DNA of 64,000 bases from Patescibacteria group bacterium. Lineage in GTDB: Bacteria > Patescibacteriota > Patescibacteriia > XYB2-FULL-38-15. Positions within the stretch are counted from its first letter, which is position 1, and every line of letters starts with the position of its first letter. Position numbers and translations under genes: made by a program. Location: positions 1,105 to 65,104 of the forward strand of contig JBAZEY010000004.1 in assembly GCA_041653675.1 (NCBI GenBank). Direction: 5' to 3'. Positions 8,410 through 59,598 of this stretch are shown one piece after another. The notes below the pieces were generated by a model. That model saw only the letters and a list, made by a program, of their open reading frames with translations. It was not told the origin of the DNA and did not search any database.

Positions 8410-8420
8410 TTCTTTGAAAA

Positions 8421-10084: not shown

Positions 10085-10530
10085 AAATAAATTAAAAATT
10101 AAAAATGTAAAATTAAAAATTACAATTAAAAGTTCAAAATTACTTCCTGCCCTTGGTACTCATAATAATAGCGGCTAGTATACGCGACAGTTCATCAGTT
10201 TCTTTTAAAAGTTTGTCAATGTTTAATTTCTGGCCGTCGCGAAATAGACCGAGCCAGTATTTTGTTTCGTTGGCTGATTTAAGGGCAATAGTTAAAAAAT
10301 TTATAAAATCTCTTCGTGAACCGGCGGCCTGAGCTTCAATAATATTCGCACCGATACTCGTGGCGCAGCGCAGAAGTTGTTTGGCCATTATTTCAACAAT
10401 CCAATCTTTTCTATCTAACTTCTTAAGAAAACACAAAATTTCTAAACTAAAAATATAGGCGCGTTTTTTAATGTCAATTTTTAATTTTTCATTGTAATTT
10501 TGCATTTTTAATTTTGAATTTTGAATTAAA
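10085..10530. repeat. Inverted-repeat-bounded cassette carrying the four-helix-bundle (IVS-protein/Avd-like) gene
   Basis: Left arm near 10097-10127 is aaaattaaaaatgtaaaattaaaaattacaat. The reverse complement of the right arm near 10487-10517 is aaaattaaaaatgcaaaattacaatg. Confidence 0.5.
10140..10505 (-). CDS. Four-helix-bundle protein (23S rRNA intervening-sequence protein family, TIGR02436/PF05635; same family as DGR Avd)
   Basis: ATSIGANIIEAQAAGSRRDFINFLTIALKSANETKYWLGL matches the family core. The likely start is the internal MQNYNEK, not the upstream extension that overlaps the MFS gene. Confidence 0.8.
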   Translation of the reverse strand: MQNYNEKLKIDIKKRAYIFSLEILCFLKKLDRKDWIVEIMAKQLLRCATSIGANIIEAQAAGSRRDFINFLTIALKSANETKYWLGLFRDGQKLNIDKLLKETDELSRILAAIIMSTKGRK

Positions 10531-11680
10531 TTAACGCGTACAACGCCGTCATTGCCGCGGCTAAAATAAAAAGCGCGATCCAACTATCCGGAAAAAAGAA
10601 AAGAGTGACAAGGGCAAGCGCGCTCACAATAAGTTTTCCCAAAACTAGAGCCATCTGAAGAAAAATAACGCAATTCATCACGCTGGTTTTTTTCGCTTCT
10701 TCGTAAGTAATAGACGCGAGCGGAACGCCGACGGTTCTTCTTGAAATTCTGTATAATGAGTCGGTCATAAAAACGCCAACTCCGGAAATTACTAAAACTC
10801 TCATAAGCCAAGTAAAGGCCGTAAAAATAACTCCGATTTTTAAAACTTCGTGTCTTGACTCTTCATCCGTAATTCTTCCAATATATAAGGTTAAAATTGT
10901 TGCCACAAAGACGGAGGCAGAAATTAAAAATCCGATGGAAGCATAGGCCGGAATCATTAAAAAAATAAAAATTGGCCAAAGATAACCGGCCAAATGTTCT
11001 TCGCCAAAACCAAAATAAGAAAAAAGTTTTCGTCGATTCTCGGGCGCGACTAGCCGCTTCATTGAATCCCGATAAGAAAAAGGTACTGGCTCAAATTTTT
11101 CCGGAGTGGTGAGAAGAGGGATATTGGAAACTAGAATCAAAAAGGCAACAATAATAAACAAAACTTTAAATCCGACGGTCGCAATGACGACGCCGCCGAA
11201 AGCCGGTCCCAAAATCATTACGATAGAATCAAGCACCACTAAATTGGAAATCTCCCTGCCGCGCGATCCATCTTTACCGAAACGAGCAAAATCGGCGTGG
11301 TAACCCGGCCAATAAAGCGTTTTTTGGATGGCTAAAGAAATGACCGCGCTTACAATAAAAAAAGGATGGTAGGGAATGGCAAACAACGACAAGTAAAAGA
11401 GAATTAAAAAGGGCGTGGAAAAAAGTATGGCGTGTTCGTAGCCGCGACTACGGGCAAATTTTCCGCCAAGCGGTACTAATAAAAAGTACAGGGCGTAAAC
11501 GGCAATATAAAAAATCAAAATTTTGGATAAAGAAAATCCCAGGGTGTAAAGATAGATAGGCTCAAAAACGCCAACCGCCGAAACGGCAAAATCTAAAATC
11601 GCCGTCGACCAAAAAAGCTCCTTTAATTCCCGCGACATGCCATCCGCGAAATAACGATGATAAAAATTACGTAAAAACAT
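10526..11680 (-). CDS. Polytopic membrane transporter, MFS-like
   Basis: About 12 predicted TM helices across 384 aa with Gly/Pro-rich loops; no specific substrate motif recognised. Confidence 0.6.
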   Translation of the reverse strand: MFLRNFYHRYFADGMSRELKELFWSTAILDFAVSAVGVFEPIYLYTLGFSLSKILIFYIAVYALYFLLVPLGGKFARSRGYEHAILFSTPFLILFYLSLFAIPYHPFFIVSAVISLAIQKTLYWPGYHADFARFGKDGSRGREISNLVVLDSIVMILGPAFGGVVIATVGFKVLFIIVAFLILVSNIPLLTTPEKFEPVPFSYRDSMKRLVAPENRRKLFSYFGFGEEHLAGYLWPIFIFLMIPAYASIGFLISASVFVATILTLYIGRITDEESRHEVLKIGVIFTAFTWLMRVLVISGVGVFMTDSLYRISRRTVGVPLASITYEEAKKTSVMNCVIFLQMALVLGKLIVSALALVTLFFFPDSWIALFILAAAMTALYALI

Positions 11681-19854: not shown

Positions 19855-19857
19855 AAT

Positions 19858-19932
19858 TATAGCTTTTAGATTAAAGGTTTCAAATTTAAGATTTTGTTCT
19901 AACCTTAAATCTTAAATCCTCAATCTATTATG
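19858..19932. repeat. Imperfect palindromic element of the AGATTTAAGATT family in the ftsA-ftsZ intergenic region
   Basis: Left arm tagattaaaggtttcaaatttaagatttt. The reverse complement of the right arm is tagattgaggatttaagatttaaggtt. Confidence 0.5.
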
Positions 19933-22104: not shown

Positions 22105-23094
22105 CTACAAACTCAATTTAAAACTCTTTATCATCATTTCAAAAGTGCTTTTATAATTCAATTCTGTTTTGCCCCCGAGACTATACGTAATGGCATAAAT
22201 TTTATCCCCCGAAGCGAAATAAGCTGTAAGCCCGTCAGGACTCTTTTTTCCGAGAAGGCCACTCTTAGTCATAACATCACTAAGTTCAGATGGACTAGTT
22301 CCGGGTGACTCAGCTAAATACCAATCCAAAAGCGGCAAACGATTCTGATTATCATCAATAACTACTTCTATAAGCTCTCCCGTGGCCGAAGTGAAAAGAA
22401 CTTCTCTCCCCGTTTCATCAAGAGCTCTCGCGATCCAAAGTGATGGATAAAAAACAGAATATTTAAAAGCTTGGCTATTATAAATTTTTACTAAATTTGT
22501 TTCTTCAATTTTCTGCGGAGCGAGGCCTGTCGGGTTATATAAATTTAAAATTTCCAGCGCGTCAGAATAAGAATCACCGTCGGTATCCGCGGTATTTTGA
22601 TCTGTACTAAACAAAGTTTCTTCAATGTCTGTTAACCCATCTCGGTCAGTATCAGCCGACGACGGTAGTTCAGCTGACGGCTCTGGCAATGGCGCGGGAC
22701 AATCGGCAAGGCATGTGATAGTACTCTCCCCTGATTCGCATGTGCCATTTCCACAAACTGGCGCCGGAGGAACATTAACAGGAACATTTACCGGAGTATT
22801 AACTGGCGGTACGTTCGCATTCACGGGCACGTTTGCCACCGTGTTGGTGTTAGCTGACGGCGTGGTGCTAGTCTTTGGTTTGCTGGTCAAACTTTGAGTA
22901 AAAAGATAGGCCGCAACGGCAACTAAAATTATAACAATAACAGCCATCGCAATAATTAATGTTGATTTTGACCCGCCGCTCTTCCCTTCCTTCGGAACTT
23001 TTACTTTCTTAAAATAAAATTGCTCCGGCATGGCCTTAATCTCGACCGGCGGTTCTTCGGCAATATTAATTGGTTTTGGCTCTCCGTTTGGCAT
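22105..23094 (-). CDS. Single-pass membrane protein with Pro/Val/Asn-rich linker, one CGNG Cys module, TSP3-like DxDxDG repeats and a C-terminal globular domain
   Basis: TM segment LIIAMAVIVIILVAVAAYLF; NVPVNANVPPVNTPVNVPVNVPP linker; CGNGTCESGE module; DTDRDGLTDIEE and DTDGDSYSD motifs. Confidence 0.65.
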   Translation of the reverse strand: MPNGEPKPINIAEEPPVEIKAMPEQFYFKKVKVPKEGKSGGSKSTLIIAMAVIVIILVAVAAYLFTQSLTSKPKTSTTPSANTNTVANVPVNANVPPVNTPVNVPVNVPPAPVCGNGTCESGESTITCLADCPAPLPEPSAELPSSADTDRDGLTDIEETLFSTDQNTADTDGDSYSDALEILNLYNPTGLAPQKIEETNLVKIYNSQAFKYSVFYPSLWIARALDETGREVLFTSATGELIEVVIDDNQNRLPLLDWYLAESPGTSPSELSDVMTKSGLLGKKSPDGLTAYFASGDKIYAITYSLGGKTELNYKSTFEMMIKSFKLSL

Positions 23095-23100
23095 AATATA

Positions 23101-23352
23101 AGATTTAAGATTGCAGATTTAAGATTTAAGATTTTGTAGTGAATGTTCTAAACCATAAAGCATTTTTGAGCATTCCTCATAATCTCTAATAAAATATTCT
23201 ATTTTTTCTTCCGATAAATACTTCTTTTCAAAAGCCATTTTCAAATGATGTTTTGTTTCTCTAATTTCTCCTTGAGCGCGACTAATACATTCTGTATAAA
23301 TGTTAATCTTCAACTCGCACGCCTTTAATCTTTAATCTTAAATCTTTAATCT
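23101..23352. repeat. AGATTTAAGATT-family inverted-repeat cassette enclosing a truncated four-helix-bundle gene
   Basis: Left arm agatttaagattgcagatttaagatttaagatttt (23101-23140). The reverse complement of the right arm (23320-23352) is ccatagattaaagatttaagattaaagattaaagg. Confidence 0.55.
23119..23313 (-). pseudogene. C-terminal half of a four-helix-bundle (IVS-protein/Avd-like) gene; N-terminal half absent
   Basis: ISRAQGEIRETKHHLKMAFEKKYLSEEKIEYFIRDYEECSKMLYGLEHSLQN aligns to the C-terminal two helices of the family. The upstream in-frame stop lies inside the flanking repeat. The annotated start is TTG. Confidence 0.6.
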
Positions 23353-23356
23353 ATGG

Positions 23357-24007
23357 TTATGGCTGCTCCAATAATCTTCCCGGCCCTTTCGGATTATATC
23401 CGGCTGTCACTTCCGCTCCATCCAAATATCCGTCACCATCTGTATCGGGATTTAAAGGATTAGTGAAATAAAGATTGACCTCGTCGCCATCTGTAAGCAC
23501 GTCGCCATCTGTATCGGGGTTTGTCGTATCAGTCCCGAGAGCTATTTCTTCTGTATTAGTTAAACCGTCACCATCTAAATCAACTTCTCCTGGGGCGGGA
23601 ATAACCGGCGCAGTTTCCAGAACTTCCGGTGGAACCTCTGCCGGCGTTTCATTAATATTGGATGGAATTTCAGCTGGAATATTTACTAGCGGCAAATTGG
23701 TATTTTGATTAGAAACGGTCGGAGTTTGTGTTCCAGTTTCTTCGGGCGCACTAGAAAATTGTCTCCAAACAAAATATCCGCCGCCGCCAAGAATTACAAC
23801 TAAAATCACGGCCGCTAAAACCAAAAACATTTTCTTTTTCCCCGGACCCCCAGCTTCCTCGCCGACTTCTTCCGGAGTTGCACCAACAGAAGCGGCTCCC
23901 CCGGGCATGCCGGGCACGGTCGGCGAAAGCGCGCCGGCCGGTCTTAATGGTTCTTGTTTCGTCGGCTCCACGCCGGCAAACATGTCTTCTGGTTCTTTGT
24001 CAAACAT
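23357..24007 (-). CDS. Single-pass membrane protein with TSP3/dockerin-like DxDxDG Ca-binding repeats
   Basis: TM segment FLVLAAVILVVILGGGGYFVW; motifs VDLDGDGLTNTEE, NPDTDGDVLTDGDE and NPDTDGDGYLDGAE. Confidence 0.7.
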   Translation of the reverse strand: MFDKEPEDMFAGVEPTKQEPLRPAGALSPTVPGMPGGAASVGATPEEVGEEAGGPGKKKMFLVLAAVILVVILGGGGYFVWRQFSSAPEETGTQTPTVSNQNTNLPLVNIPAEIPSNINETPAEVPPEVLETAPVIPAPGEVDLDGDGLTNTEEIALGTDTTNPDTDGDVLTDGDEVNLYFTNPLNPDTDGDGYLDGAEVTAGYNPKGPGRLLEQP

Positions 24008-24062: not shown

Positions 24063-27000
24063 CTATCTCACGGTAAACTCACCGCTTCGCTCTTGACCCA
24101 CAGTAGTCATATCACTGCCTCTAAATAACTCTCCTTCACTGGCAGAAAGACTCCAGACAAGAGCAGATCCAGTTCCAGTGCTAAGATTGTATCTCCCCGC
24201 GCCAGTTGTGCCATTGTAAACAATCCGGAAATTGTGCAAACCTCTTGATAAAGTACTGATCACTAGATCTCTTCTGCAATCCGGTGTAAGTCCTCCGCCG
24301 GGAGCAGCACATATACTGGCATTAGTTATACCAACCTTATGGCCATCAATATAAACTTCAAAAACATCAGCCGCATTATTACTGCTCACATGCAGACTTA
24401 TCGTCGCACAGTCCGTCGCGTCATCCATACAGCCGTCGGTTCCACTATCATCATTCGGATCGCAAGCGTCAATTATTTCATCACTGTCAGTATCTGGGCT
24501 ATATCTTAGCCTGCAGGTTTCGCCAGCTGGACAATCACCAGTAACTCTACAAATCCGAGAAGCAGTAGCGCTACAGGTTCCCGTAGATTCATATTTTCTA
24601 TTATCACAAGCCCGACCCGTGGCGCAAGTAATCGCGCAAGACGAAGGACTGCAACCCGGCGAAGTCGGTGTGGTGAGATCTTGTGGCTTGCCCCAAGGAT
24701 TTGAAGTATCAACACAAATCCAACTCGCGGGATATGCCGGCAGACGGCTATCGCATTGTTCCGCGCCGCTCACTGTCCCATCGCCGCAAGTCGGACCGCT
24801 CGCCGTTCTTAACGTGCATTCACGGCTGCAATAATTACAAGTTGATCCATATGGCGCCGTACAAGGCGTACCGTTTACATCTTCGCCGGAATCGCACGTT
24901 TCTATTCCCGCTCTCGTAAATCCATCACCACAACTAGAATTCTGGCAATCTACACAAGCGTCTGTATCTACATCATTTGCGTCATCGCATTGTTCACCAC
25001 CTTCAACCGTGCCATTGCCGCATTCGCCGGTTACTGTGCAAACACCCCAACCTTCATCTCGCCACTGGCATTGTCTTACATCTCCCGATACCTCGCATTC
25101 CAAGGTTCTAACGCGCGGATATCCCGTCCCGGCTTCCGGAGAACACAATAAACATTCTTCTTCTGGTTCCGCGCAGTCCGAGTTGCTCTCACAAACTACA
25201 TTAAAATCATCTGAAAGAATGGGGCTGGCCGGACTCAAGTGTTCATCAACCGGAACACAAACTCCTCTCCCGGACAATAAATTTCTATCACATTCTTCTC
25301 GACCATCGGTCACGGTATTTCCGCAAAATGGCGCCGACCCGACACAACCCGCCGCGCAAATCGGTCGACAAGTGCTGCCCGGACAATCGCTGTCCACACG
25401 ACACGACGATCTATCATTATCACAAATTTTTCCATAATTTCCATTAAGACCTTCATCGTCGCACCGCTCGCCAAATCCGCTTTGCAAAATTCCATCTCCA
25501 CAATAACCGCCACTCATTCGGCAGACAGTAGAACATTGATATTCATTCGTCGGCAATGTCCCGCCTCCCGGAATTCTTCCTCCGCCCGGACCGCGATCGC
25601 AAGCTTCACCCGTATCAATAATCCCATTTCCGCAAGTAGGAAGACACGACCCCCAATCATTCCATCGACAAGTAGCTAAATTACAAGTTCGGCTTTGCCG
25701 ACCCGTTCCACTGCCGCAAGATTGTTCGCTCGTGCGGCACGTTCCGCCCGTAGCAACGCAATCCAAATCACTGCGGCAAAAACTTGTCGGATCCGAAGAA
25801 CATGTATTTAATAAACTCGGTTCGCATTCTTCGGCTTCGTTTTCCGGCGTCGCCGGATTATCAACATTTAGTATTCCATCACCACAAACTCCACCCACAC
25901 TGAAAGTTGTACCATCGCAAACATTTTCATATTTAATGTAGGCTGGAATAGCGTCTCTAAACCAACTCCAACTCGGAAGAATTATCGCGCCCGATGAATT
26001 AGTAAGCTTGTGTTCCAAATCACCGCCAATATTATAAAATCCCGTAGCTGATTCGTAACGATATTGGTAAATATGAGACAAATCGGGACAGTGGTAAGAT
26101 TCTGCGCTCGTGTTCCAACAAGTGTCAGGATTATAAGGATCTACGCAACCCTGAAATTTATTTACCGGATCTTGTGGTAATCCTCCGCCGAGTTCCTGCC
26201 CAAGCACGGCCCATGAATCCCACTTGCTCGTGGAAATCCCTCGAACATACGAACCGGCTTCCAGTTTTGGCGGATAACCTCGCGTCATCATATATCTTTC
26301 CACCTCGGCTTTGATTTTATCTAAATCAGATAAACGTTTAACATCACGGGCCAATTTATCTTTTGGCGCATCACACAAAGATTGTGTCGGAGTTTGTGGA
26401 CAATCCAAATCAGCCGAACAAGGAATCGCTTGATCATCTTCGTCCGTGACAGTTGCCGCGCCGCGCTTACAAACTTTATTATTTTCCAAATTAATATTAA
26501 AATTCCAATTTTCTACCAATTGATTATAAATATCAATTGTGTCCTGGCTGGCATCTTCATTATATGAAATCAAATAAACGTTTGTATAAATGTCTGGCCC
26601 GGAACTAGAGCCGCCAATAAGCGCCGGCTGGTTTGCCGCGGAAACATAAATTGTCCGACCATCTTCCACGGCTTGATATTGATCAACCGTTTTCCCACTC
26701 GGAGACGCCGGTCTGAATCCTTGGGCCGTGTACCAATCGGATAAAGCAAGGTGGTTTTCATTTGTATAAATTCTAATACCGATCGCGTCGGGCGAAGATT
26801 GGCAAGATCCGCCTTCCGGGGCGCACGGATTTTCCGTGTTACAAGGCAATTTGGAAAGGGTACAATAACTCCCCTGAACAAATAAGAAATATTCTCTGAG
26901 TAAAAAGTCAGATGATCCCGGCGGCTCCGGCGGATTATTTACAATCGGCGGATCGCTAACCGTCGGTAAATCATCGCTAAAACCAAGCTCTCCTCTGTCC

Positions 27001-30000
27001 TGGCAATAATATGTTTCAAAATTATATGTTTCATCAGCTAACCCTTCGCCCGTCACGCCAAATCTATCTGGCCATGGATTTTCACAAAGAAAAACTATCG
27101 CGTCGGCCCCGCTACCCAACACTCGTCCCACGGTTCGGGGAGATAAAATTGTATCGGCAGTAATTCTCGCTGAAACTAAAATTCTTGCTTCTCCGTTTTT
27201 ATTTTCCGCTTTCGCCTCTTGGCTAGCATTAAGTTCGCAAACTCCGCCGTCTCTACAATCGCTCGCGCTGTGACAAATTGCAGTCGATTCATTGGAACAA
27301 GCGCCTTCGGGATTTAAGCTAACTACTGTTGGATCGTTAGACACCCAATCTTCCCATTGCCAAGCGTACACCCCGGGCAAGGAAGAAATCGCTCTCCCCC
27401 GCGTGTCTCTCGGTATGGCGGAAAAATTGTGTGTTTCACCACTCTGCGTAAAAACATGAACCTCCGGCGTAAATGTCACTTGGCTCAAAGCACAAATGTC
27501 ACCGCCCGTCTTAAACGACCATTCATAAATTTCCCTGCCGCTGTAGGCCGCGGGGTATTCACCGGATAAGCTACCTCCACCCAACGCCACGCCTTTTGAA
27601 TTTCTAATCCCCTCAATCTCGGGCGTTGTAGAATTGTCACCTAAAATCAAAACTCTATAGTCATTATCACTATCAAAAGCTTTAGTTGGACTAAAGCTTA
27701 CTTCCGTCACCAAATTTCCACCTTTATTTACAACAACAGACGACGCTGTTCCCGGCCAGACGCACCACGGACTTCCCGGCGCGGCGCTCGCCGGCTCGCC
27801 GAGCAATGATTGCCCAAATTTATTGACGAAATCTTTTACTTGGCTAAAAATCTTTAAATCATTCTCAATTTTATTAATCGGCTTAACCAATATTCTCGCA
27901 ATCGGCGGAGGCAGCCACTTCTTTATTTTTTCAAAAAATTGCCAACCGGATTTTCCTTCGCCGGTCCATAGAGCTAATTGTACCGTTCCGTCAGGACACG
28001 TCCCGCCGTAATTGCCGACGACTAAAATATTACCCGTGACGCTCGCTGTTTCCATTACATCGTCAAATGTCACAGAAATTCTGGCATTGCGGCAAACTTC
28101 AACCGCTCCTGAATCACAACCAACCGCGCCATCCCGAGTGGGATCGCAGTTTGTCACTTTTGGTTTAAAGTAGCAACATGTGTTGCGGCCAACTCCCAAT
28201 TCGCAATCAGCGTCAGTTGTGCAAGATTGTGAAGTTGTTCCTGAACATATATTAGAAGTTGAAATACACGACAAACGAATTGCACTGCAATCCTGACCGC
28301 CGCAGCGCAAAGTCAAATCGCCGCTGTCGGATTTTCCCTCTGTCGCGGCTGAAATTTCCGTGGTGCTGGAATTTACTCCGGCCGCCACGTCCTCCGTGGC
28401 AAGATCAATTGCTTCGGCCGTTTGGTATGGATCAATTCTCGCGTCCGTGACTGTTCCTTCATTTAAGCAAGTATCACTGCAACCCGGCCCTGGAGCGTTC
28501 CCATCGTCGCAATCTTCACCGCGTTCTTTCGCCCGATTTCCACAAACTCCCCCGCCAGCCACAGATCCTTCGTGTTGGCAAATATTATTACATCCATCCC
28601 CCGAACGAGTATTTCCGTCATCACAATCTTCGCCAATTTGAATTATGCCATTACCACAAGTTGAATCATAACGCGCGTTTGATCCTTCGTTCAAACAAGT
28701 CGCATTACAACCATCAAGCGTTGCCGTATTGCCATCGTCACAGTCTTCGCCAAATTCTTTTACGCCATTTCCGCAAGATGGATAATTATTATCATTGGTA
28801 ATTGTTGCCACTCCTGGATCAGCCGATGCCCAGCCCCAATTATAATCCATAGCACCAAGCTGCTGGCCGTTCGGGCTACAGAGATCTGGCTCGCTGAAAG
28901 GCGTGGAAGAATAATTTTGCGTCGCGCCGATAAAATTCAAAATCGCGTTTTGCGGATCAACTGCCACGCGATCCACGGCGCAAGGACTGGCATCATCTTT
29001 AGTTTTGAAAGTCCAAGAGTAAGCAGAAAAAGCCGCCGGGTCGCCGGCCGGATAATTTAAATCAGTCAAATGGACGCCGCTCGTTGAAGTAACACGATCA
29101 GAAATAACGGCGCGATAATAAGTATTCGGCGTAAAGAGCACTAAAGGCTCAATAACCATTTTTTTTGCGACCGAATCGTAAGAAGTTCCTGCCAGAGAAA
29201 CTTCCTCCAGAGCTCTCGTTCCTTCATTTAAACAAGTTGTCGCGTTGCAGTTGGCCGGGAATGGAGATCCGTCACAATCTTCACCTTCTTCAACCAGGCC
29301 ATTACCGCAAACCGCGGCGGCGCCATCGCTGCCGATATTTAAACATGTGGTGCGATTACAACGCTCCGGAAATGGCACACCGTCGCAATCTTCACCGGTT
29401 TCGCGGCGATCATTGCCACAGTACGAACCATAAAGCGCGTTTGACCCTTCATTCAAACAAGTCGCGCTGCAACCGTCGCCTGCCGTCGCATTGCCGTCAT
29501 CACAATCTTCACCGGGCTCAATCACGCCATTGCCGCATTTCCAAATATAAAGATTAACATTTGCCGCGCTCTCCACGCTCGCCTGATTCATGTTTGTATT
29601 AAATTCCGCGCCGACTTCCGCGTTAGCGCAAGCATCACTGCAGTTCGGCCACGCATTTTCTACTCTTGGGTCTGTAAAATTAATTGTCAAATTTCCTGAG
29701 CCAAATTTACTTTCACTTGGAATTCCGCCGGTAATTCGAACCGGCAAACCAACTTCTGTTTCCGCCCGAGCCGTGGCAACTTCACTCGGAGTAATACTAC
29801 CAGCCACAGTGGCTTTTGAAATATCTGACGAAGTCCAGCGCCAAGGACTATAAGCGCTGCAATCAATTGTTATGCAAACATCGCCGGCCGCATAACACAA
29901 ACTATCATAATTCTGTGTCGCCCCAATACTTACTAAAGTCCGTTCATACGGAGAAACCCCAACTAAACCGATATCACACGTCTCGTCGCTGTCGCGGGTT

Positions 30001-32975
30001 TTAAATTGCCAAATATAATCGCCACCTTCCACTCCATCTCGGTCGCCATCCAAGAAAAATCCCCCATCCGGACAACCGGCGCCTCCAAGACAGCTTTCTA
30101 TTCCTGTGCCGGCAACCGCGTCACTTTTCAAAGTCACCTGATACCAAGTATTTTGCGTCCACTTTCTTCCTACCGGCAACAACTTAAGTTCAAAACCATC
30201 TTGATGGTCATCAATGTCACTAAATCTAACACTGCTGCCAGTAACCTCTGCTTTCGTCGTACAGGTTTGATCAGAACAGCTTTCAACTAAAATATTTGAT
30301 GTATTTACTGATGCTGGATTTATTTTTGTCGTGAAGCGCGCCGTTATTGTGGCGTTAACACAAACTCTCTCTCCTCCATCTCTGCCAGACCATGGTGAAG
30401 GTGAAGCCGGCCCCGGCGGTGGGGGATTGCTGCAGCTTTCTACCACTTGCGGATAAATCGGAAGTTGGCCAGTGGAAAATTGCCAGAAATAATACCCTTT
30501 ACCCGCGGCCGCAGCGCACGCTACGGCGCAACTGCCATCACGGCAACATTGCTGGCCGGAAGAACAAGTGGCGCCCGTGCGACAATCTTGAACTATAAAA
30601 TTAACACTATTTCCCGTTGCTCCCCCAGAAGTAACATTAACCGGACCGGTTTGGGTTCCGGTCGGAACAGGCGTAGAAATTTGTATGCCGTCAGTTGGAG
30701 TAACAGTCGCAGGAGTTGACCGATAAAAATTAACTAAAGCCGACGCGCCAAAGCGCTCGCCATCAATTCTCACCGGCAAATCAATCGGTCCATTGTCCGG
30801 AGTAATTTTACAAATTCCCGGACCGGCCGTTCCAGAATCAACCGTAAAATCCGATGTTGTTAAATCGCTTGTATCATCAGACTGGCCACCCGCGGTTCCA
30901 GCAGTCGTAATTTTTATAACATCTGTAACCGCGCCGGTCGGAACTTTTACAATAATTTGATCGTTTTTCCACCAATCAGCTCCGCAAGCCGCAGGAAAAT
31001 CTGTCGCGGCCAAAAGATCCGCGCCGCCGATATCTTTAAAAAATACTTGGCCGGTTTCATTGAGAAAATTGGCGCCAAAAATTGTCACGTACTCGCCTAT
31101 TGGCCCATGCGTCGGAGAAAAACTTAAAATTCTTGGCGCTTCGGCCGTGGCGACAACTTGGAAATTAATTGGATTGCTGTTTTCACCGCCAACCACGACT
31201 TGTACTGGAACCGTAGCCGGAGCGATTAAAGGTACAACCGCGCCAATGCTCGTGGGAGTCCAGAGACTAACTCGTTCTGCTCGTGTTCCGCCAAAAATTA
31301 TTTCACTTGTTCCTTGTGTCGCGCCAAATTGAGTGCCAGCAACAACTACTTCAATTCTCGGCTCGCCATTATCCGGCGTAATTGAACAAATTCCCGGCCG
31401 GCTTGTATCATTTATATCAAAATTTGGCAAAACCGGACCGCGCTCATCATCAGTTTGATCGGTATAGTCAGCTGCGGTCGCGCCGGTTGGCGGAGGCACC
31501 ACAACTTTTACCGGACCATCAGTCGCGCCAGCAGGAACAACCGCGATAATCTGATTATTTTGCCAAGTAGCTGAAGCAGGACAAGCCGGCGTTCCAGATA
31601 AAACATTATTAAAATAAACTTGGCCGGAAATATCTCCAAATCCTTGGCCAAAAATTGTCACGTAATTTCCTACTGCTCCATCGTTTGGCGAAACGGCAGT
31701 AATTTCTGGTAGAGTTCGGCAAACTCCGCCAATACATGATCCTCCGCGGCAATCTGTTCCGCTCGTGCAAGATCCTCCGTCGCAAGTTCCGCAATCCGCG
31801 CCACCACAATCAATATCTGTTTCATCCGCGTCCTGTCGCCCGTTAAAACAATGCGCCGCCCGGACAATTACGTCCACGCCGCCAGAAGTAGTATTATTGG
31901 AATCAATATCAAAAGCTTTCGTCGTCAAAGTATGTCTTGATCCAGCCGTAACGCCAGTTGTATCCCAATCAAAAATTGATGAATAGTCACGCGGCGTTGG
32001 ACCAGAGGGTGCATCAGTTCCAAGCGTTCCGCCATTTGAAAAATATTCCAAATAAGAAATTCCCGCGTCGTCTGTCGCGTGCGCCTCAATCGAAACTATC
32101 GCGTCAGCCGAAACAGAAGCGCCCGGATTGGGAGAAGTGATTCTTACTTCCGGCCCGGTCACGTCAACTAAATTTCCTGTTGTAAAATTGGCCGTACAAT
32201 TTGGCGCGAGTCCGCCACAAACTAAAAATTTTCCATCAGTACTTCGGAGACCGGTTGCCGCTTCCACCGTAAATTCCGTGTCCGCGTCAAAACATTTTCT
32301 GTCAACGTTCGGTGCCGGACAATTGGCACTCGGAACGAATTCCACGACCGTTCCGGAAGCGCTCGCTGTTCCGTCCACTAAACTTCCGTCAGCCGTCACG
32401 GTTAAATTTCCCGCTAAAGTTGTCGCGTCAACATTTTTGTTAAAAACAACGCGCACGACAACATTTCGAATTGGTATAGCGCCATTCGGCTGAATTCCGC
32501 GGACAACAAATGAATCAGACGGCAAACCACCGCCACCGCCTCCTCCACCACCGCCACCGCCTCCTCCACCACCGCCACCGCCTCCTCCACCACCGGTAAT
32601 GCCCGTCGCTTCCATTAATCTATTCATAACATACTGGGTGATGCCAAAAGAGAAAATAATAATAATCAAACCTATCAAAGCATTAACCAGAATTTTTTTG
32701 GCCTGCGATATCCGCTCCTCATTGCCGCCAGCCGTCATCCAAACAAAACCGCCGTAAATTACAATGGCTACGGCGACAATCCCCAAAAATCCGAGCGCTA
32801 CACGAATAATTTGCGCCGCGACCACTCGCGGATCTTCCGTCGGTAGAGCAATTTCATTTCCCACTTCATTCACCCCAAAATCCTGGGCGAAAATAGTTGT
32901 AGCAAACAAAAACGCACCCGTAATCAAAAACAGGGAAAAAAGAAATTTTAAAATTTTCTTCTCGTGTGGTTTCAT
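24063..32975 (-). CDS. Giant (2970 aa) Cys-rich cell-surface protein with N-terminal VirB2/TrbC-pilin-like double-TM domain and poly-Gly linker
   Basis: After the signal peptide (cleavage ...TIFAQ-D), LGFLGIVAVAIVIYGGFVWMTAGGNEE ... LIGLIIIIFSFGITQYVMNRL ... TGGGG parallels Ti VirB2 and RP4 TrbC. A run of about 24 Gly follows. Several CGNGxxExGEDCDDGNxxxGDGC repeats; beta-rich extracellular modules. Confidence 0.85.
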   Translation of the reverse strand: MKPHEKKILKFLFSLFLITGAFLFATTIFAQDFGVNEVGNEIALPTEDPRVVAAQIIRVALGFLGIVAVAIVIYGGFVWMTAGGNEERISQAKKILVNALIGLIIIIFSFGITQYVMNRLMEATGITGGGGGGGGGGGGGGGGGGGGGGGLPSDSFVVRGIQPNGAIPIRNVVVRVVFNKNVDATTLAGNLTVTADGSLVDGTASASGTVVEFVPSANCPAPNVDRKCFDADTEFTVEAATGLRSTDGKFLVCGGLAPNCTANFTTGNLVDVTGPEVRITSPNPGASVSADAIVSIEAHATDDAGISYLEYFSNGGTLGTDAPSGPTPRDYSSIFDWDTTGVTAGSRHTLTTKAFDIDSNNTTSGGVDVIVRAAHCFNGRQDADETDIDCGGADCGTCDGGSCTSGTDCRGGSCIGGVCRTLPEITAVSPNDGAVGNYVTIFGQGFGDISGQVYFNNVLSGTPACPASATWQNNQIIAVVPAGATDGPVKVVVPPPTGATAADYTDQTDDERGPVLPNFDINDTSRPGICSITPDNGEPRIEVVVAGTQFGATQGTSEIIFGGTRAERVSLWTPTSIGAVVPLIAPATVPVQVVVGGENSNPINFQVVATAEAPRILSFSPTHGPIGEYVTIFGANFLNETGQVFFKDIGGADLLAATDFPAACGADWWKNDQIIVKVPTGAVTDVIKITTAGTAGGQSDDTSDLTTSDFTVDSGTAGPGICKITPDNGPIDLPVRIDGERFGASALVNFYRSTPATVTPTDGIQISTPVPTGTQTGPVNVTSGGATGNSVNFIVQDCRTGATCSSGQQCCRDGSCAVACAAAAGKGYYFWQFSTGQLPIYPQVVESCSNPPPPGPASPSPWSGRDGGERVCVNATITARFTTKINPASVNTSNILVESCSDQTCTTKAEVTGSSVRFSDIDDHQDGFELKLLPVGRKWTQNTWYQVTLKSDAVAGTGIESCLGGAGCPDGGFFLDGDRDGVEGGDYIWQFKTRDSDETCDIGLVGVSPYERTLVSIGATQNYDSLCYAAGDVCITIDCSAYSPWRWTSSDISKATVAGSITPSEVATARAETEVGLPVRITGGIPSESKFGSGNLTINFTDPRVENAWPNCSDACANAEVGAEFNTNMNQASVESAANVNLYIWKCGNGVIEPGEDCDDGNATAGDGCSATCLNEGSNALYGSYCGNDRRETGEDCDGVPFPERCNRTTCLNIGSDGAAAVCGNGLVEEGEDCDGSPFPANCNATTCLNEGTRALEEVSLAGTSYDSVAKKMVIEPLVLFTPNTYYRAVISDRVTSTSGVHLTDLNYPAGDPAAFSAYSWTFKTKDDASPCAVDRVAVDPQNAILNFIGATQNYSSTPFSEPDLCSPNGQQLGAMDYNWGWASADPGVATITNDNNYPSCGNGVKEFGEDCDDGNTATLDGCNATCLNEGSNARYDSTCGNGIIQIGEDCDDGNTRSGDGCNNICQHEGSVAGGGVCGNRAKERGEDCDDGNAPGPGCSDTCLNEGTVTDARIDPYQTAEAIDLATEDVAAGVNSSTTEISAATEGKSDSGDLTLRCGGQDCSAIRLSCISTSNICSGTTSQSCTTDADCELGVGRNTCCYFKPKVTNCDPTRDGAVGCDSGAVEVCRNARISVTFDDVMETASVTGNILVVGNYGGTCPDGTVQLALWTGEGKSGWQFFEKIKKWLPPPIARILVKPINKIENDLKIFSQVKDFVNKFGQSLLGEPASAAPGSPWCVWPGTASSVVVNKGGNLVTEVSFSPTKAFDSDNDYRVLILGDNSTTPEIEGIRNSKGVALGGGSLSGEYPAAYSGREIYEWSFKTGGDICALSQVTFTPEVHVFTQSGETHNFSAIPRDTRGRAISSLPGVYAWQWEDWVSNDPTVVSLNPEGACSNESTAICHSASDCRDGGVCELNASQEAKAENKNGEARILVSARITADTILSPRTVGRVLGSGADAIVFLCENPWPDRFGVTGEGLADETYNFETYYCQDRGELGFSDDLPTVSDPPIVNNPPEPPGSSDFLLREYFLFVQGSYCTLSKLPCNTENPCAPEGGSCQSSPDAIGIRIYTNENHLALSDWYTAQGFRPASPSGKTVDQYQAVEDGRTIYVSAANQPALIGGSSSGPDIYTNVYLISYNEDASQDTIDIYNQLVENWNFNINLENNKVCKRGAATVTDEDDQAIPCSADLDCPQTPTQSLCDAPKDKLARDVKRLSDLDKIKAEVERYMMTRGYPPKLEAGSYVRGISTSKWDSWAVLGQELGGGLPQDPVNKFQGCVDPYNPDTCWNTSAESYHCPDLSHIYQYRYESATGFYNIGGDLEHKLTNSSGAIILPSWSWFRDAIPAYIKYENVCDGTTFSVGGVCGDGILNVDNPATPENEAEECEPSLLNTCSSDPTSFCRSDLDCVATGGTCRTSEQSCGSGTGRQSRTCNLATCRWNDWGSCLPTCGNGIIDTGEACDRGPGGGRIPGGGTLPTNEYQCSTVCRMSGGYCGDGILQSGFGERCDDEGLNGNYGKICDNDRSSCRVDSDCPGSTCRPICAAGCVGSAPFCGNTVTDGREECDRNLLSGRGVCVPVDEHLSPASPILSDDFNVVCESNSDCAEPEEECLLCSPEAGTGYPRVRTLECEVSGDVRQCQWRDEGWGVCTVTGECGNGTVEGGEQCDDANDVDTDACVDCQNSSCGDGFTRAGIETCDSGEDVNGTPCTAPYGSTCNYCSRECTLRTASGPTCGDGTVSGAEQCDSRLPAYPASWICVDTSNPWGKPQDLTTPTSPGCSPSSCAITCATGRACDNRKYESTGTCSATASRICRVTGDCPAGETCRLRYSPDTDSDEIIDACDPNDDSGTDGCMDDATDCATISLHVSSNNAADVFEVYIDGHKVGITNASICAAPGGGLTPDCRRDLVISTLSRGLHNFRIVYNGTTGAGRYNLSTGTGSALVWSLSASEGELFRGSDMTTVGQERSGEFTVR
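32528..32596. repeat. Perfect 3x tandem 21-nt repeat encoding the poly-Gly linker
   Basis: The unit gccaccgcctcctccaccacc occurs three times on the plus strand, in frame (7 Gly per unit). Confidence 0.7.
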
Positions 32976-34075: not shown

Positions 34076-34103
34076 AAAGTTTTTAAATTACTAAATTTTA
34101 AAT

Positions 34104-56848: not shown

Positions 56849-59215
56849 TTATTCTTTGTTAAGTGCCAGGTGTTTAGTCAAAGCTCCTCGCAAAACGTCA
56901 TCTACGTCTTTAGCAAAAATAAATTTTAAATCTTTTCTGACATTAGCCGGAATTTCTTCCAAGTCTTTTTCATTATCCTTGGGTAAAATTATTGTTTTTA
57001 CGTCGGCCCGGTGAGCGGCTAAAACTTTTTCTTTAACTCCACCAATTTCTAAAGCGCGGCCGCGGAGCGTCACTTCGCCGGTCATCCCAACATCTTTTTT
57101 AATAGGCGTTCCTGTTAAAACTGATATAATCGCCGTCGCCATGGCTACGCCAGCTGACGGACCGTCCTTCGGAATCGCTCCGGCCGGAACATGAATATGA
57201 ATGTCTGAATCTTTATAAAATTTGTCTTTAATACCAAAAGATTTGGCGCGTGATCGGGCATAAGAATATGCCGCTTGCGCCGATTCCTGCATAACTTTGC
57301 CGAGTTGTCCGGTTAAAATCAACTGTCCCTTTCCCGGCATTTTAGTCGCCTCAATTAAAAGTATTTCGCCGCCCGCCTGTGTCCAAGCTAGGCCAGTTGA
57401 AACCCCAACTTCATCTTTTTTCTCAGCCATTGTTGTATGATATTTTTCTGGTCCTAAAAATTGGTGAAGATCGGAAATGCCAACTTTATAATTTTTCTCG
57501 TCGCCCTCAGCAATTTTTCGCGCCACCTTTCGACAGATAGCGGAAATATTTCTTTCAAGCTCGCGGACGCCGGCTTCGCGCGTATATTCCCTTATAACAG
57601 CCCTAACTGCCGGTTCGGTAATGATAAGCCTCTCGCCATCATGCAAGCCGTTCTCTTTTAATTGTTTGGGAATGAGAAAATTTTTCGCAATATGAAATTT
57701 TTCTTCCTCAATGTATCCGGGAAATTCGATCATCTCCATGCGGTCGCGAAGCGCCGGCGGAATGGTATCTAAAACATTGGCCGTGGTAATAAACATCACA
57801 TCCGACAAATCAAACGGGATTTCAAGATAATGATCTGAAAAAGCGTAATTTTGTTCTGGATCCAGTGCTTCAAGCAACGCGGCTGACGGATCGCCGCGAA
57901 AATCGGCTCCAACTTTATCAATTTCATCAAGCATAAAAACGGGATTTTTCATGCCAGCTGTATTTACTCCCTGGATGATTCTGCCTGGCAGAGCGCCGAC
58001 ATAAGTTCGTCGATGGCCGCGAATTTCTGCCTCATCGCGAATGCCGCCGAGTGACATTCTAAAAAATTTTCGGCCAAGAGCTTTGGCGATAGATTTTCCA
58101 ATAGAAGTTTTGCCCGTTCCTGGCGGCCCGGAAAAACAAAGGATTGGACCCTTAATTTTCCCAACTAGCTTTTGCACGGCCAAATATTCCAAAATTCTTT
58201 CTTTAACTTTATCTAAACCATAATGATCTTCATCAAGAACTTTTTGAGCTTTTTTAATATCAACCTTACTTTCGGTCTTTTTCGACCACGGCAACATAAT
58301 TAACCAATCAAGATAGGTTCTAATATAAGAAATTTCCGGACTAAAAGACGGCATTTTTTCAAGACGCGCCAACTCTTTTAGGGCCTGCTCCTTTGCTTCG
58401 GGAGCCATCCCGGCCTTTTCTATTTTTTCTTTTAATTCCTCTACCTCACTCCGACCGCCGGCCATACCCAATTCTTTTTCAATCGTTTTCATCTGCTCGC
58501 GCAAAAACATTTCTTTTTCCATTTTTCCCAACTCCTTGCCGGTTTCCGCCTGAATTTTTTGAGCCATGCGTAAAACTTTCAATTGCCTCCCGATCGATTC
58601 CCCAAGTTTCCCCAATTTATTTTCAATATTGTCGGCTTCAAGAATCGCCTGCTTCTCATCAACTTTAAAATCCAAATTTATTGTCATCAAGTCAGCCAAT
58701 TCCCATGGGTCAGTAATATTTAAAATTACCAAAAGCACGTCGAAAGGAACAGTCGCACCAAGCGAAACACATTCCTTAAATTGATTAATCAAACTATACA
58801 TCAAGGCTTCAATCCGTTCTGTCTTTTTAACCATCGGCTCCGGGGCTGGCTCAACTTTAACTCTGATAAAAGGATCAAATGATAAAAATTCTGTAATTTT
58901 TGCACGAATCATTCCCTCAACTACGATTCGCACAGACCCATCGGGCTGTTTTGTAATTTCCCTAATTTTAGCGAGTGTGCCGACAGAATAAAGATCATCC
59001 TTGGTAATTTTATCTCCCACGTCTTTTTTTTCTGCGACACAAACTGCCATCTGATCGTGCTGCATCGCATAATCTAAAGCTTTCAAAGTTTTTTCTTTTT
59101 TAACTATTAAAGTCAAAGCAACTCTCGGAAAAACAACAACGTCAACCAGCGGAATTATAGCTAGTTCTTTTTTAGCCTTACTGTCCAGCGTGCTTAAATT
59201 TTTTTCTGCCTCCAT
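56849..59215 (-). CDS. lon: ATP-dependent Lon protease
   Basis: Walker A GPPGTGKTS; catalytic Ser context PKDGPSAGVAMATAI; Lon N-terminal domain. Confidence 0.95.
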   Translation of the reverse strand: MEAEKNLSTLDSKAKKELAIIPLVDVVVFPRVALTLIVKKEKTLKALDYAMQHDQMAVCVAEKKDVGDKITKDDLYSVGTLAKIREITKQPDGSVRIVVEGMIRAKITEFLSFDPFIRVKVEPAPEPMVKKTERIEALMYSLINQFKECVSLGATVPFDVLLVILNITDPWELADLMTINLDFKVDEKQAILEADNIENKLGKLGESIGRQLKVLRMAQKIQAETGKELGKMEKEMFLREQMKTIEKELGMAGGRSEVEELKEKIEKAGMAPEAKEQALKELARLEKMPSFSPEISYIRTYLDWLIMLPWSKKTESKVDIKKAQKVLDEDHYGLDKVKERILEYLAVQKLVGKIKGPILCFSGPPGTGKTSIGKSIAKALGRKFFRMSLGGIRDEAEIRGHRRTYVGALPGRIIQGVNTAGMKNPVFMLDEIDKVGADFRGDPSAALLEALDPEQNYAFSDHYLEIPFDLSDVMFITTANVLDTIPPALRDRMEMIEFPGYIEEEKFHIAKNFLIPKQLKENGLHDGERLIITEPAVRAVIREYTREAGVRELERNISAICRKVARKIAEGDEKNYKVGISDLHQFLGPEKYHTTMAEKKDEVGVSTGLAWTQAGGEILLIEATKMPGKGQLILTGQLGKVMQESAQAAYSYARSRAKSFGIKDKFYKDSDIHIHVPAGAIPKDGPSAGVAMATAIISVLTGTPIKKDVGMTGEVTLRGRALEIGGVKEKVLAAHRADVKTIILPKDNEKDLEEIPANVRKDLKFIFAKDVDDVLRGALTKHLALNKE

Positions 59216-59220
59216 AAATA

Positions 59221-59300
59221 TTAGATTATAGATTTAAGGTTACAGATTTAAGAAATTTTTCGCCACCATCTCACTTTAATCTTAAATCTTTAATCTGAAA
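59221..59300. repeat. Palindromic element of the AGATTTAAGATT family
   Basis: Left arm tagattatagatttaaggttacagatttaagaaa. The reverse complement of the right arm is tagatttcagattaaagatttaagattaaag. About 18-nt loop. Confidence 0.55.
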
Positions 59301-59301
59301 T

Positions 59302-59598
59302 CTATTTGAAAGGTAACGATGCTTGTTTGCCCTGCAAACTTTTCGCCACTTTTCGTCCTATCGCCGTCAATTTTATTTCTTTAATAAACCATTTTTTCGG
59401 CGTCCGGACACCGTAGCCAATAAGAAAACCCTTGTCAATTAATCTTTCCAGGGATTTTGTGACAATATTTACTCTATCCTCCATCTTGGGCGGCCGCTTT
59501 TGCTTATCATAAAACCGCAAAATTTTTCCACGGCCAAACTTGTTCTTTTCTGCGTAGCCCAAGCCCAAAATATACTTTTGGAGAAGGGATATTTTCAT
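59302..59598 (-). CDS. Small basic hypothetical protein (98 aa)
   Basis: ORF only; no recognisable motif. Confidence 0.4.
   Translation of the reverse strand: MKISLLQKYILGLGYAEKNKFGRGKILRFYDKQKRPPKMEDRVNIVTKSLERLIDKGFLIGYGVRTPKKWFIKEIKLTAIGRKVAKSLQGKQASLPFK

What the first reader, a model, noticed from the sequence alone, without database searches (positions are those of the whole stretch)
23101..23352. Second, truncated four-helix-bundle cassette flanked by AGATTTAAGATT-type inverted repeats
A 64-codon ORF (TTG start) encodes only the C-terminal two helices of the same family (ISRAQGEIRETKHHLKMAFEKKYLSEEKIEYFIRDYEECSKMLYGL). An in-frame stop inside the flanking repeat shows the N-terminal half was deleted. 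Both ends carry arms built from agatttaagatt units in inverted orientation. This is a decayed copy of the element type at 10.1-10.5 kb, inserted between two surface-protein genes.
Basis: seen in the sequence. Interest (0 to 1): 0.55.

Follow-up and report, generated by a model that had tools for sequence, protein, structure and literature searches.

The report
Dead four-helix-bundle cassette in heptamer-repeat hairpin
The spacer between two genes of a Patescibacteria operon holds a dead copy of a small, apparently mobile cassette (a four-helix-bundle gene between inverted runs of 7-base repeats), built like the intervening sequences known from 23S rRNA but sitting in an mRNA spacer.

Summary
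Window 23095-23356 is a 262-nt spacer. It holds a 64-codon ORF that matches only the C-terminal half of the four-helix-bundle family (PF05635/TIGR02436), set between inverted tandem arrays of AGATTWA heptamers.

An intact 119-aa ortholog lies at the same site in a relative (L005). Against it, the window copy has lost 158 nt, which shifts the frame. The original GTG start survives and reads VRVED-stop.

In 13 related lineages the same spacer is in one of these states:
- empty
- a bare heptamer hairpin
- this cassette, intact, deleted or MITE-disrupted
- an unrelated four-helix-bundle cassette with different heptamers
- a radical-SAM/SPASM gene

The cassette is 91-95% identical between lineages whose ftsA/ftsZ are 82-83% identical, so it moves horizontally.

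Inverted heptamer arrays flank most of the 33 homologous genes tested, far above control ORFs. I also saw them by eye on six of eight plasmid copies from Cyanobacteria and Azospirillum.

The closest known thing is the 23S rRNA intervening sequence of Coxiella: an S23p ORF, heptameric repeats and a stem cut by RNase III. Here the insert lies in an mRNA spacer.

RNase III processing and the way the cassette moves are inferred, not shown. Verdict: a real feature, and a new variant of a known kind.

The parts
23095..23356 (-). Whole intergenic spacer (262 nt), equal to the decayed cassette. It lies between the stop of the 216-aa TSP3-repeat gene and the ATG of the 329-aa gene.
   Evidence: It is identical in three other metagenome contigs.
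23323..23352 (-). 5' arm in the gene's sense: a tandem heptamer array of AGATTAA/AGATTTA, 4.3 copies.
   Evidence: The same arm is present in L005 and L043.
23303..23320 (-). Stub of the original reading frame: GTG CGA GTT GAA GAT TAA (V R V E D stop). The deletion junction lies between 23306 and 23305.
   Evidence: by comparison with L005:3617-3976.
23119..23313 (-). The 64-codon TTG ORF. Positions 23119-23305 are the retained 3' 187 nt of the gene (helices 3-4 plus the stop codon). This part is 91-94% identical in nucleotides to the L005 and L043 copies.
23099..23134 (-). 3' arm: a heptamer array (AATCTTA/AAATCTT in the gene's sense, 5.1 copies). It overlaps the stop codon and ends about 5 nt before the ATG of the next gene.
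   Evidence: The predicted RNA fold pairs it with the 5' arm.
10085..10532 (-). Full-length cassette of a different four-helix-bundle subfamily. The gene is 10140-10505 (121 aa from the ATG). The arms are AAATTAA-type heptamers, 57 nt at 81% complementarity.
19855..19927 (-). Bare ('solo') hairpin of AGATTTA-type heptamers filling the ftsA-ftsZ spacer.
   Evidence: Heptamer-array hairpins at the same spacer in five relatives, other palindromes in two, none in two.
59214..59305 (-). Second bare hairpin of AGATTTA-type heptamers. The arms are 32 nt at 81% complementarity, 28 nt apart, between a 788-aa ORF and a 98-aa ORF.
   Evidence: (I7, I11).

Best explanation
This is a dead copy of a small selfish cassette. 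The cassette is a roughly 120-codon gene for a four-helix-bundle protein (the S23p / 23S-rRNA-IVS-protein / Avd-like family) set between two inverted arrays of 7-nt repeats. It is inserted exactly between the stop codon of one operon gene and the start codon of the next, and it points the same way as those genes.

Shown:
- The gene was killed by a 158-nt internal frameshifting deletion.
- The arms are intact.
- The cassette is an insert, because some relatives have an empty site.
- It is more similar between lineages than the host genes are.
- The gene-plus-heptamer-arms layout recurs through most of the family.

Inferred:
- The cassette has no room for its own promoter, so it is transcribed as part of the host operon.
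- In that transcript the arms pair into a long imperfect stem. The stem loops the insert out and brings the flanking cistrons together.
- As in the Coxiella and Leptospira 23S rRNA intervening sequences, the stem is cut by RNase III, which releases the cassette RNA.
- The purine-rich 5' arm may also serve as the ribosome-binding region of the cargo gene.

How the cassette moves between sites and genomes is not known.
For: Identity and decay:
- HMM matches cover only the C-terminal half of the family.
- The retained part is 93% identical in protein to residues 59-119 of the intact L005 ortholog.
- The deletion of 158 nt (remainder 2 on division by 3) was mapped against that ortholog.
- The L005 protein is full-length PF05635 at 99.6 bits, and its nearest solved structure is 2GSC (XCC0516).

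Insertion and turnover. The same spacer is in different states in relatives:
- empty in L007, L045 and L048;
- a bare heptamer hairpin or array in L046, L047, L049 and L050;
- the same cassette, intact, in L005/L006;
- the same cassette, disrupted by MITE-like inserts, in L043;
- a four-helix-bundle gene 26% identical (over the aligned 108 residues), with AGAAACT arms, in L004;
- a SPASM-domain gene in L044.

Horizontal movement:
- The cassette is 91-95% identical in nucleotides among the window, L005 and L043.
- ftsA and ftsZ are 82-83% identical and the flanking genes 71-75%.
- Protein homologs are 66-78% identical in bins labelled as many different candidate phyla.

Generality of the arms:
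- Flank complementarity has a median score of 30 for four-helix-bundle genes against 14 for 212 control ORFs. 24 of 33 exceed the control 95th percentile (Mann-Whitney p = 1e-13).
- A period-7 signal on both flanks exceeds the control 95th percentile in 26 of 33.
- By eye, six of eight plasmid copies from Cyanobacteria and Azospirillum also have inverted heptamer arrays.

Co-transcription:
- The upstream neighbour is on the same strand in 35 of 36 loci, with gaps of tens of nucleotides.
- No promoter-like site lies on the gene's strand inside the cassette.

Stem:
- The minimum-energy RNA fold pairs the two arms (-52.4 kcal/mol, z = -2.4).

Precedent:
- The Coxiella IVS has an S23p ORF, tandem GACAGAT heptamers before the start codon and a 28-bp terminal stem. 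RNase III cleaves it in vitro, and its ORF is decaying (PMC4990558).
- The heptamer repeats sit at the start codon of XCC0516 as well (PMC4692102, supplement file 2).
Against: - There is no direct evidence for transcription, stem formation or RNase III cleavage here.
- The arms show no excess of G-U-compatible mismatches on the sense strand (18 G:T against 19 A:C). Most mismatches are A.A or U.U, recurring about once per 7-nt unit. Selection for RNA pairing specifically is therefore not demonstrated. A DNA-level role or a protein-binding role for the heptamers fits equally well.
- The z-score of the fold is modest.
- Some family members break the pattern. A Pseudanabaena plasmid copy has direct, not inverted, arrays. 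L021 and L025 lack a clear partner arm.
- No recombinase, target-site duplication or other mobility mark was found.
Confidence: 0.6

Rival explanations
1. The heptamer arrays act at the DNA level. They would be recombination or insertion sites (like REP/BIME elements, integron attC sites or MITE ends) or binding sites for the pentameric cargo protein. On this view the RNA stem is incidental, and the cassette moves by recombination at such arrays.
For: - There is no G-U bias in the stems, and a mismatch recurs about once per heptamer. Both fit motif arrays better than a stem kept by selection.
- Bare arrays and hairpins occupy the same spacers in relatives and turn over quickly.
- Within one genome, each four-helix-bundle subfamily carries its own heptamer.
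- The same spacer has been occupied by unrelated cassettes.
Against: - No recombinase or target-site duplication was seen.
- Cassettes at one site carry different heptamers from each other and from the bare hairpins there, so simple homologous exchange between arms does not explain re-occupation.
- The one experimentally studied relative, the Coxiella IVS, acts as an RNA substrate (PMC4990558).
Confidence: 0.25
2. The heptamer hairpin is a host regulatory element of operon spacers, such as an mRNA processing, stability or translational-coupling signal. The four-helix-bundle gene would be a passenger that happens to land in hairpin loops.
For: - Bare heptamer-array hairpins sit in the ftsA-ftsZ spacer of the window and five of nine relatives, and two more carry other palindromes.
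- Another lies at 59214-59305.
- Hairpins also separate ATP synthase genes in other Patescibacteria.
Against: - The hairpins are absent from the same spacers in other relatives (L045, L050 for ftsA-ftsZ; L007, L045, L048 for the focal site), so they are dispensable.
- Their heptamer sequence changes between close relatives.
- Arms and gene travel together across hosts.
Confidence: 0.1
3. It is the remnant of an Avd accessory gene of a diversity-generating retroelement.
For: The family is homologous to Avd (PMC10053308). The fragment gives a weak Avd HMM hit of 15.7 bits.
Against: - The Avd model cut-off is 80 bits.
- No reverse transcriptase stands out among the window's ORFs. The two RT-motif hits are in a 460-aa and a 736-aa ORF, and neither was run against Pfam. 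The called genes from the giant gene (about 9 kb upstream) to about 6 kb downstream carry no RT domain.
- No template/variable repeat pair was found. The only direct repeats are internal repeats of the giant protein and the heptamer arms.
Confidence: 0.03
4. The 64-aa ORF is a functional half-size protein, not a pseudogene.
For: The retained half has no further stops or frameshifts. Codon differences from L005 are 10 synonymous against 4 non-synonymous. An independent disruption in L043 also leaves the same half intact.
Against: - The ORF is out of frame with the preserved GTG start and begins at a TTG created by the new context.
- The cassette is young (91-95% identity), so the lack of extra damage is expected.
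- The synonymous excess probably predates the deletion.
- Two helices cannot form the four-helix bundle of the family.
Confidence: 0.03

Closest known systems
23S rRNA intervening sequence (IVS) with an S23p ORF, as in Coxiella burnetii and Leptospira (PMC4990558)
   Same: The cargo family is the same (PF05635/TIGR02436). Both have terminal inverted repeats that close a long stem, tandem heptameric repeats directly before the ORF start, no mobility gene, sporadic horizontal distribution, and a cargo ORF that decays while the arms persist.
   Different: The host site differs. This cassette sits in a spacer between protein-coding genes of an operon, not in helix 9, 25 or 45 of 23S rRNA, and no rRNA gene is in the window. 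RNase III cleavage is untested here. The heptamer arrays are longer and present on both sides.
Intergenic heptamer repeats: cyanobacterial STRR, Xanthomonas GGGAATC arrays (PMC4692102), Beggiatoaceae TAACTGA repeats (PMC4679880)
   Same: These are tandem 7-nt units in intergenic spacers, often as convergent (inverted) pairs between co-oriented genes, with fast turnover between relatives. One Xanthomonas array overlaps the start codon of XCC0516, the four-helix-bundle protein of PDB 2GSC.
   Different: Neither paper contains the terms 'four helix'/'four-helix' or 'S23', so neither links the repeats to this gene family. One proposes G-quadruplexes and the other translational regulation. The AT-rich AGATTWA units here cannot form G-quadruplexes.
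Avd, the accessory protein of diversity-generating retroelements
   Same: It is a homologous four-helix-bundle fold and a pentameric, nucleic-acid-associated protein.
   Different: There is no RT, no template/variable repeats, and the score is far below the Avd model cut-off.
MITEs and REP/BIME-type intergenic palindromes
   Same: They are small, intergenic, bounded by inverted repeats, present or absent between relatives, and decay to non-coding hairpins.
   Different: The arms here are tandem arrays of a short unit rather than unique terminal repeats. No target-site duplication or cognate transposase was found. By contrast, true MITE-like inserts with a 5-bp duplication are seen inside the L043 copy.

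Membership tests
Four-helix-bundle protein family (PF05635 23S_rRNA_IVP / TIGR02436) | Significant match to the family profile | tested here: met
   TIGR02436 gives 32.0 bits against a cut-off of 24. PF05635 gives 33.7 bits against a cut-off of 33.8, so the fragment is marginal there. The intact ortholog L005 scores 99.6 bits.
Four-helix-bundle protein family (PF05635 23S_rRNA_IVP / TIGR02436) | Full-length domain of about 105-110 residues forming four helices | tested here: not met
   Only profile positions 58-108 of 109 are present. 158 nt are deleted and the frame is shifted. It is a gene remnant, not a member protein.
23S rRNA intervening sequence (IVS) element | Inserted in a helix of the 23S (or 16S) rRNA gene | tested here: not met
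   It lies between two protein-coding genes. Rfam finds no rRNA in the window.
23S rRNA intervening sequence (IVS) element | Terminal inverted repeats that form a closing stem | tested here: met
   The arms are 26 nt at 88% complementarity, and the minimum-energy fold pairs them.
23S rRNA intervening sequence (IVS) element | ORF of the S23p family inside the loop, with heptameric repeats before its start | tested here: met
   compared with the Coxiella description (PMC4990558).
23S rRNA intervening sequence (IVS) element | Excision from the precursor RNA by RNase III | not testable with these tools
   This needs RNA end mapping or an in vitro cleavage assay.
Diversity-generating retroelement (Avd component) | Linked reverse transcriptase and a template/variable repeat pair | tested here: not met
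   No RT domain among the called neighbours from the giant gene (about 9 kb upstream) to about 6 kb downstream, and no RT stands out among the window's ORFs. No TR/VR-like direct repeats. The Avd HMM gives 15.7 bits against a cut-off of 80.
Transposable element (IS or MITE) | Target-site duplication and a cognate transposase | tested here: not met
   Comparing occupied and empty sites shows no duplication. The cassette encodes no transposase.
Intergenic tandem heptamer repeats (STRR-like) | Tandem 7-nt units in an intergenic spacer, often as convergent pairs | tested here: met
   TRF finds period 7 with 5.1 and 4.3 copies. The arrays are in inverted orientation.

The most novel reading that the evidence does not exclude
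Four-helix-bundle genes plus their inverted heptamer arrays would form one widespread, unrecognised class of mobile cassette, found in Patescibacteria, Cyanobacteria, Planctomycetota, Bacteroidota and Proteobacteria. The classic 23S rRNA IVS would be just one landing site of this class. The pentameric cargo protein would recognise its own heptamer arrays and drive or regulate cassette spread, for example by recruiting a reverse transcriptase as Avd does. The many puzzling intergenic heptamer repeats of bacteria (STRR, GGGAATC, TAACTGA) would be the footprints these cassettes leave behind.
Probability: 0.2. Interest if true: 0.8.

Novelty: new variant of a known kind. Interest (0 to 1): 0.55.

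Why it matters
The PF05635 proteins are very common, yet outside DGR Avd they have no known function. Intergenic heptamer repeats have been reported several times without an explanation. The 23S rRNA IVS has been an oddity for 30 years.

This locus and its relatives tie the three together. The same gene-in-a-heptamer-hairpin unit sits in mRNA spacers and turns over at one site. It is exchanged between lineages and decays to a hairpin with a dead gene.

That gives a concrete, testable model system:
- defined empty and occupied alleles
- a defined stem
- a small protein whose binding to its own repeats can be assayed

For annotation, it explains short 'four helix bundle' ORFs and assembly breaks in Patescibacteria genomes.

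Tried and rejected
- G-U wobble asymmetry, tested as a signature of RNA-level selection on the stems: no signal (18 against 19).
- Rfam search of the region and of the whole window: no RNA family other than tRNAs.
- Viral contigs scanned for the cassette protein: no match.
- Two metagenome pattern scans for the downstream gene's start. Both found nothing. The first pattern was mis-specified by one N.
- A possible third cassette at 56915-57229, suggested by an inverted-repeat pair: rejected, because it lies inside the 788-aa ORF.
- AT-rich spots at 34081 and 43865: ordinary short spacers.
- Apparent lack of ORFs in 1-8.4 kb: explained by a giant minus-strand ORF that runs off the window.
- The best promoter-like match, in the ftsA-ftsZ hairpin: its -10 box abuts the ftsZ ATG, so it is probably a chance AT-rich match.
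- DGR reading: rejected.
- Chance low-complexity reading: rejected.
- Literature searches for a described link between four-helix-bundle genes and heptamer arrays: only the Coxiella IVS paper turned up.

Full report
**1. What is in the sequence**

Window 23095-23356 is the 262-nt spacer between two minus-strand genes. The upstream gene encodes a 216-aa protein with bacterial TSP3 repeats (23357-24007). The downstream gene encodes a 329-aa protein with no Pfam hit (22105-23094).

The spacer holds the 64-codon ORF 23119-23313 (TTG start). This ORF matches only the C-terminal half of the four-helix-bundle family:
- PF05635, positions 60-106 of 106, E 4.5e-8.
- TIGR02436, positions 58-108 of 109, 32 bits against a cut-off of 24.

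Both ends of the spacer are tandem heptamer arrays:
- TAAGATT x5.1 at 23099-23134.
- The inverse, CTTTAAT x4.3, at 23323-23352.
- Together they form an inverted repeat of 26 nt at 88% complementarity.

The 12-mer AGATTTAAGATT with up to 1 mismatch occurs 14 times in the window against 0.96 expected. The other matches fall in two places. One is the ftsA-ftsZ spacer (19855-19927). The other is 59214-59305. At both, the same heptamers form hairpins with no gene inside.

**2. Organism and orthologous sites**

The 329-aa neighbour is named 'Patescibacteria group bacterium' in public records. Some of its homologs (72% and 47% identity) are named Candidatus Falkowbacteria. Three metagenome contigs carry the identical spacer.

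In more distant relatives, whose neighbour protein is 57-77% identical, gene order is kept: giant protein, TSP3 protein, 329-aa protein, ybeY, dagK, ftsA, ftsZ, nrdD. The spacer itself varies:

| State of the spacer | Loci |
|---|---|
| Intact 119-aa gene with the same AGATTWA arms | L005, L006 |
| Same cassette, with a 126-nt MITE-like insert (5-bp duplication CAGAA) in the gene and an ~80-nt palindromic insert in the 5' arm | L043 |
| A different four-helix-bundle gene (26% identity over the aligned 108 residues) with AGAAACT-type arms | L004 |
| A SPASM-domain (radical-SAM-type) gene, apparently frameshifted, between AGAAAC-like arrays | L044 |
| Bare heptamer arrays or hairpins of other unit sequences | L046, L047, L049, L050 |
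| Empty spacer of 14-23 nt | L007, L045, L048 |

**3. The decay event**

Against L005, the window copy lacks nt 16-173 of the 360-nt gene. That is 158 nt, which is not a multiple of three. The original GTG start is kept at 23320 and now reads V-R-V-E-D-stop. The junction lies between 23306 and 23305. The 64-aa TTG ORF is therefore the old C-terminal half read from a chance start in the shifted context. It is 93% identical to L005 residues 59-119.

**4. Evidence for mobility**

The retained 173-187 nt are 91-95% identical among the window, L005 and L043. For the window against L005, ftsA and ftsZ are 82-83% identical in nucleotides (93% in protein). The two flanking genes are 71-75% identical across the three lineages. 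A pseudogene cannot be held at that level by selection, so the cassette is younger than the split of its hosts.

The subfamily has more than 1000 database homologs. Among representative genomes they are 66-78% identical in bins labelled Saccharibacteria, Peribacteria, Doudnabacteria, Taylorbacteria, Kerfeldbacteria, Paceibacterota, Nomurabacteria and Peregrinibacteria. Unrelated cassettes have also occupied one spacer at different times. Together this argues for horizontal spread with a preference for stop-start junctions.

**5. The architecture is a rule of the family**

I examined 33 homologous genes in representative genomes.
- Complementarity between the upstream and downstream flanks has a median score of 30, against 14 for 212 control ORFs.
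- 24 of 33 exceed the control 95th percentile (Mann-Whitney p = 1e-13).
- Both flanks show a period-7 signal above the control 95th percentile in 26 of 33.

The unit sequence varies between loci and hosts:
- AGATTWA or AGTTGWA in AT-rich Patescibacteria.
- CCGATTW in L014.
- GGGTTCA in Planctomycetota.
- GGTCATT in a Bacteroidales bin.

Other four-helix-bundle subfamilies in the same genomes carry their own units:
- AAATTAA at window 10.1 kb.
- AGAAACT in L004.
- GTAATTT in L011.
- TTCGAAA in L028.

So arms and gene behave as one unit.

An independent sample of eight plasmid copies gives the same picture. Inverted heptamer arrays are seen in five of the seven cyanobacterial copies and in the Azospirillum copy. 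A Pseudanabaena copy has direct arrays, and a Nostoc 7120 copy has only the downstream array.

The upstream neighbour is co-oriented in 35 of 36 loci, with gaps of tens of nucleotides. In 29 of 46 cassettes the upstream arm is G-rich and the downstream arm C-rich. Only 3 show the reverse.

**6. How it probably works**

The closest studied system is the Coxiella burnetii 23S rRNA intervening sequence (PMC4990558). Its features are:
- An S23p ORF of this same family.
- Tandem GACAGAT heptamers just before the start codon, with copy number varying between strains.
- A 28-bp terminal stem.
- Excision by RNase III in vitro.
- An ORF undergoing reductive evolution, while the RNA element is kept.

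Patescibacteria rRNA insertions are also known to carry 23S_rRNA_IVP ORFs (PMC11270868).

By analogy, I infer three things for the window cassette:
- It is transcribed with its operon, because there is no promoter-like site on its strand.
- Its arms pair. The minimum-energy fold closes the whole insert (-52.4 kcal/mol, z = -2.4).
- The stem is an RNase III substrate.

The purine-rich 5' arm next to the start codon could also supply the ribosome-binding region. That would explain the polarity bias.

These steps are inferred. The shown parts are the anatomy, the deletion, the site polymorphism, the excess similarity and the family-wide pattern.

**7. What argues against the RNA model**

The stems show no excess of G-U-compatible mismatches (18 G:T against 19 A:C). 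Most mismatches are A.A or U.U, about once per 7-nt unit. This fits arrays of a motif as well as it fits a selected stem. A DNA-level role or a protein-binding role for the heptamers therefore remains a serious rival.

No recombinase or target-site duplication was found. No reverse transcriptase stands out among the window's ORFs, although the two RT-motif hits were not checked against Pfam. The mechanism of movement is open.

**8. Comparison with the literature**

Intergenic heptamer repeats have been described in several groups:
- Xanthomonas: GGGAATC, often as convergent pairs (PMC4692102).
- Cyanobacteria: STRR.
- Beggiatoaceae: TAACTGA (PMC4679880).

In the texts searched, none of these is linked to four-helix-bundle genes. 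Yet the Xanthomonas supplement lists a 4-unit GGGAATC array overlapping the start codon of XCC0516. That protein is the structural representative of the family (PDB 2GSC) and the best solved match to the L005 protein.

The library does not hold most subscription-journal papers, so an earlier description cannot be excluded.

**9. Verdict**

By itself the object is a pseudogene remnant. Its value is the context: an IVS-type cassette outside rRNA, with empty, occupied, replaced and decayed alleles at one site, and an architecture shared across phyla. I rate it a new variant of a known kind, with interest 0.55.

Noticed in passing
window 19855-19927: The ftsA-ftsZ spacer is filled by a bare hairpin of AGATTTA-type heptamers. 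Five relatives have a heptamer-array hairpin in the same spacer (AGATTTA-type or ATTAACA/ATTGACA-type units), and two more (L046, L049) have other palindromes. Two relatives (L045, L050) have none. The stems show a mismatch about every 7 nt.
   Followed up: partly
window 59214-59305: A second bare AGATTTA-type heptamer hairpin (arms 32 nt at 81% complementarity, 28 nt between them) lies between a 788-aa ORF and a 98-aa ORF.
   Followed up: partly
window 10085-10532: A full-length four-helix-bundle cassette of another subfamily (121 aa, 24% identical to the type at 23.1 kb over an 80-residue local alignment) has AAATTAA-type arms of 57 nt. It lies between a 281-aa and a 384-aa ORF on the same strand. 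Synteny in relatives was not checked.
   Followed up: partly
L043 3866-3950 and 4173-4299: The orthologous cassette in this relative carries two small palindromic inserts. One of about 80 nt is in the 5' arm. One of 126 nt is inside the gene, with inverted ends and a 5-bp duplication CAGAA. Both look like MITEs.
   Followed up: partly
L044 624-1813: At the same spacer, a relative carries a SPASM-domain (radical-SAM-type) gene, apparently frameshifted, between AGAAAC-like heptamer arrays. The hairpin loops may therefore hold cargo other than four-helix-bundle genes.
   Followed up: partly
L053 (Pseudanabaena galeata plasmid pPg_01, 45880-47018): A four-helix-bundle gene sits between cas6 and cas4. 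It is flanked by long direct, not inverted, heptamer arrays: (GCTAAAA) about 14 times upstream and (GCCAAAA)n downstream.
   Followed up: no
L034 2108-2410: A 100-aa ORF that looks like a small GIY-YIG nuclease (judged by eye, not run against Pfam) is flanked by a near-perfect inverted repeat of about 19 nt (CCAGGTAGTAAAAATTCGAT / ATCGAATTTTACTACCTGG). It appears to be a different kind of small cassette.
   Followed up: no
46 cassettes in L004-L058 and the window: The upstream arm is G-rich and the downstream arm C-rich in 29 cassettes, against 3 with the reverse. An inverted repeat reads the same on both strands, so this is a property of the repeat itself. It may reflect a need for a purine-rich ribosome-binding region before the cargo gene.
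   Followed up: partly
window 1-8440 and 24063-32975: Two giant minus-strand ORFs are present. One of more than 2813 aa runs off the window start. The other, of 2970 aa, has internal Cys-rich repeats and lies just upstream of the TSP3 gene.
   Followed up: no
L023, L024, L027, L029, L038: In five Patescibacteria bins the same cassette subfamily lies directly upstream of a gene starting M-x-G-x-I-x-x-I-I-G-P-V-V-D, apparently between the ATP synthase gamma and beta genes (read by eye, not run against Pfam). This may be a second recurrent landing site.
   Followed up: no
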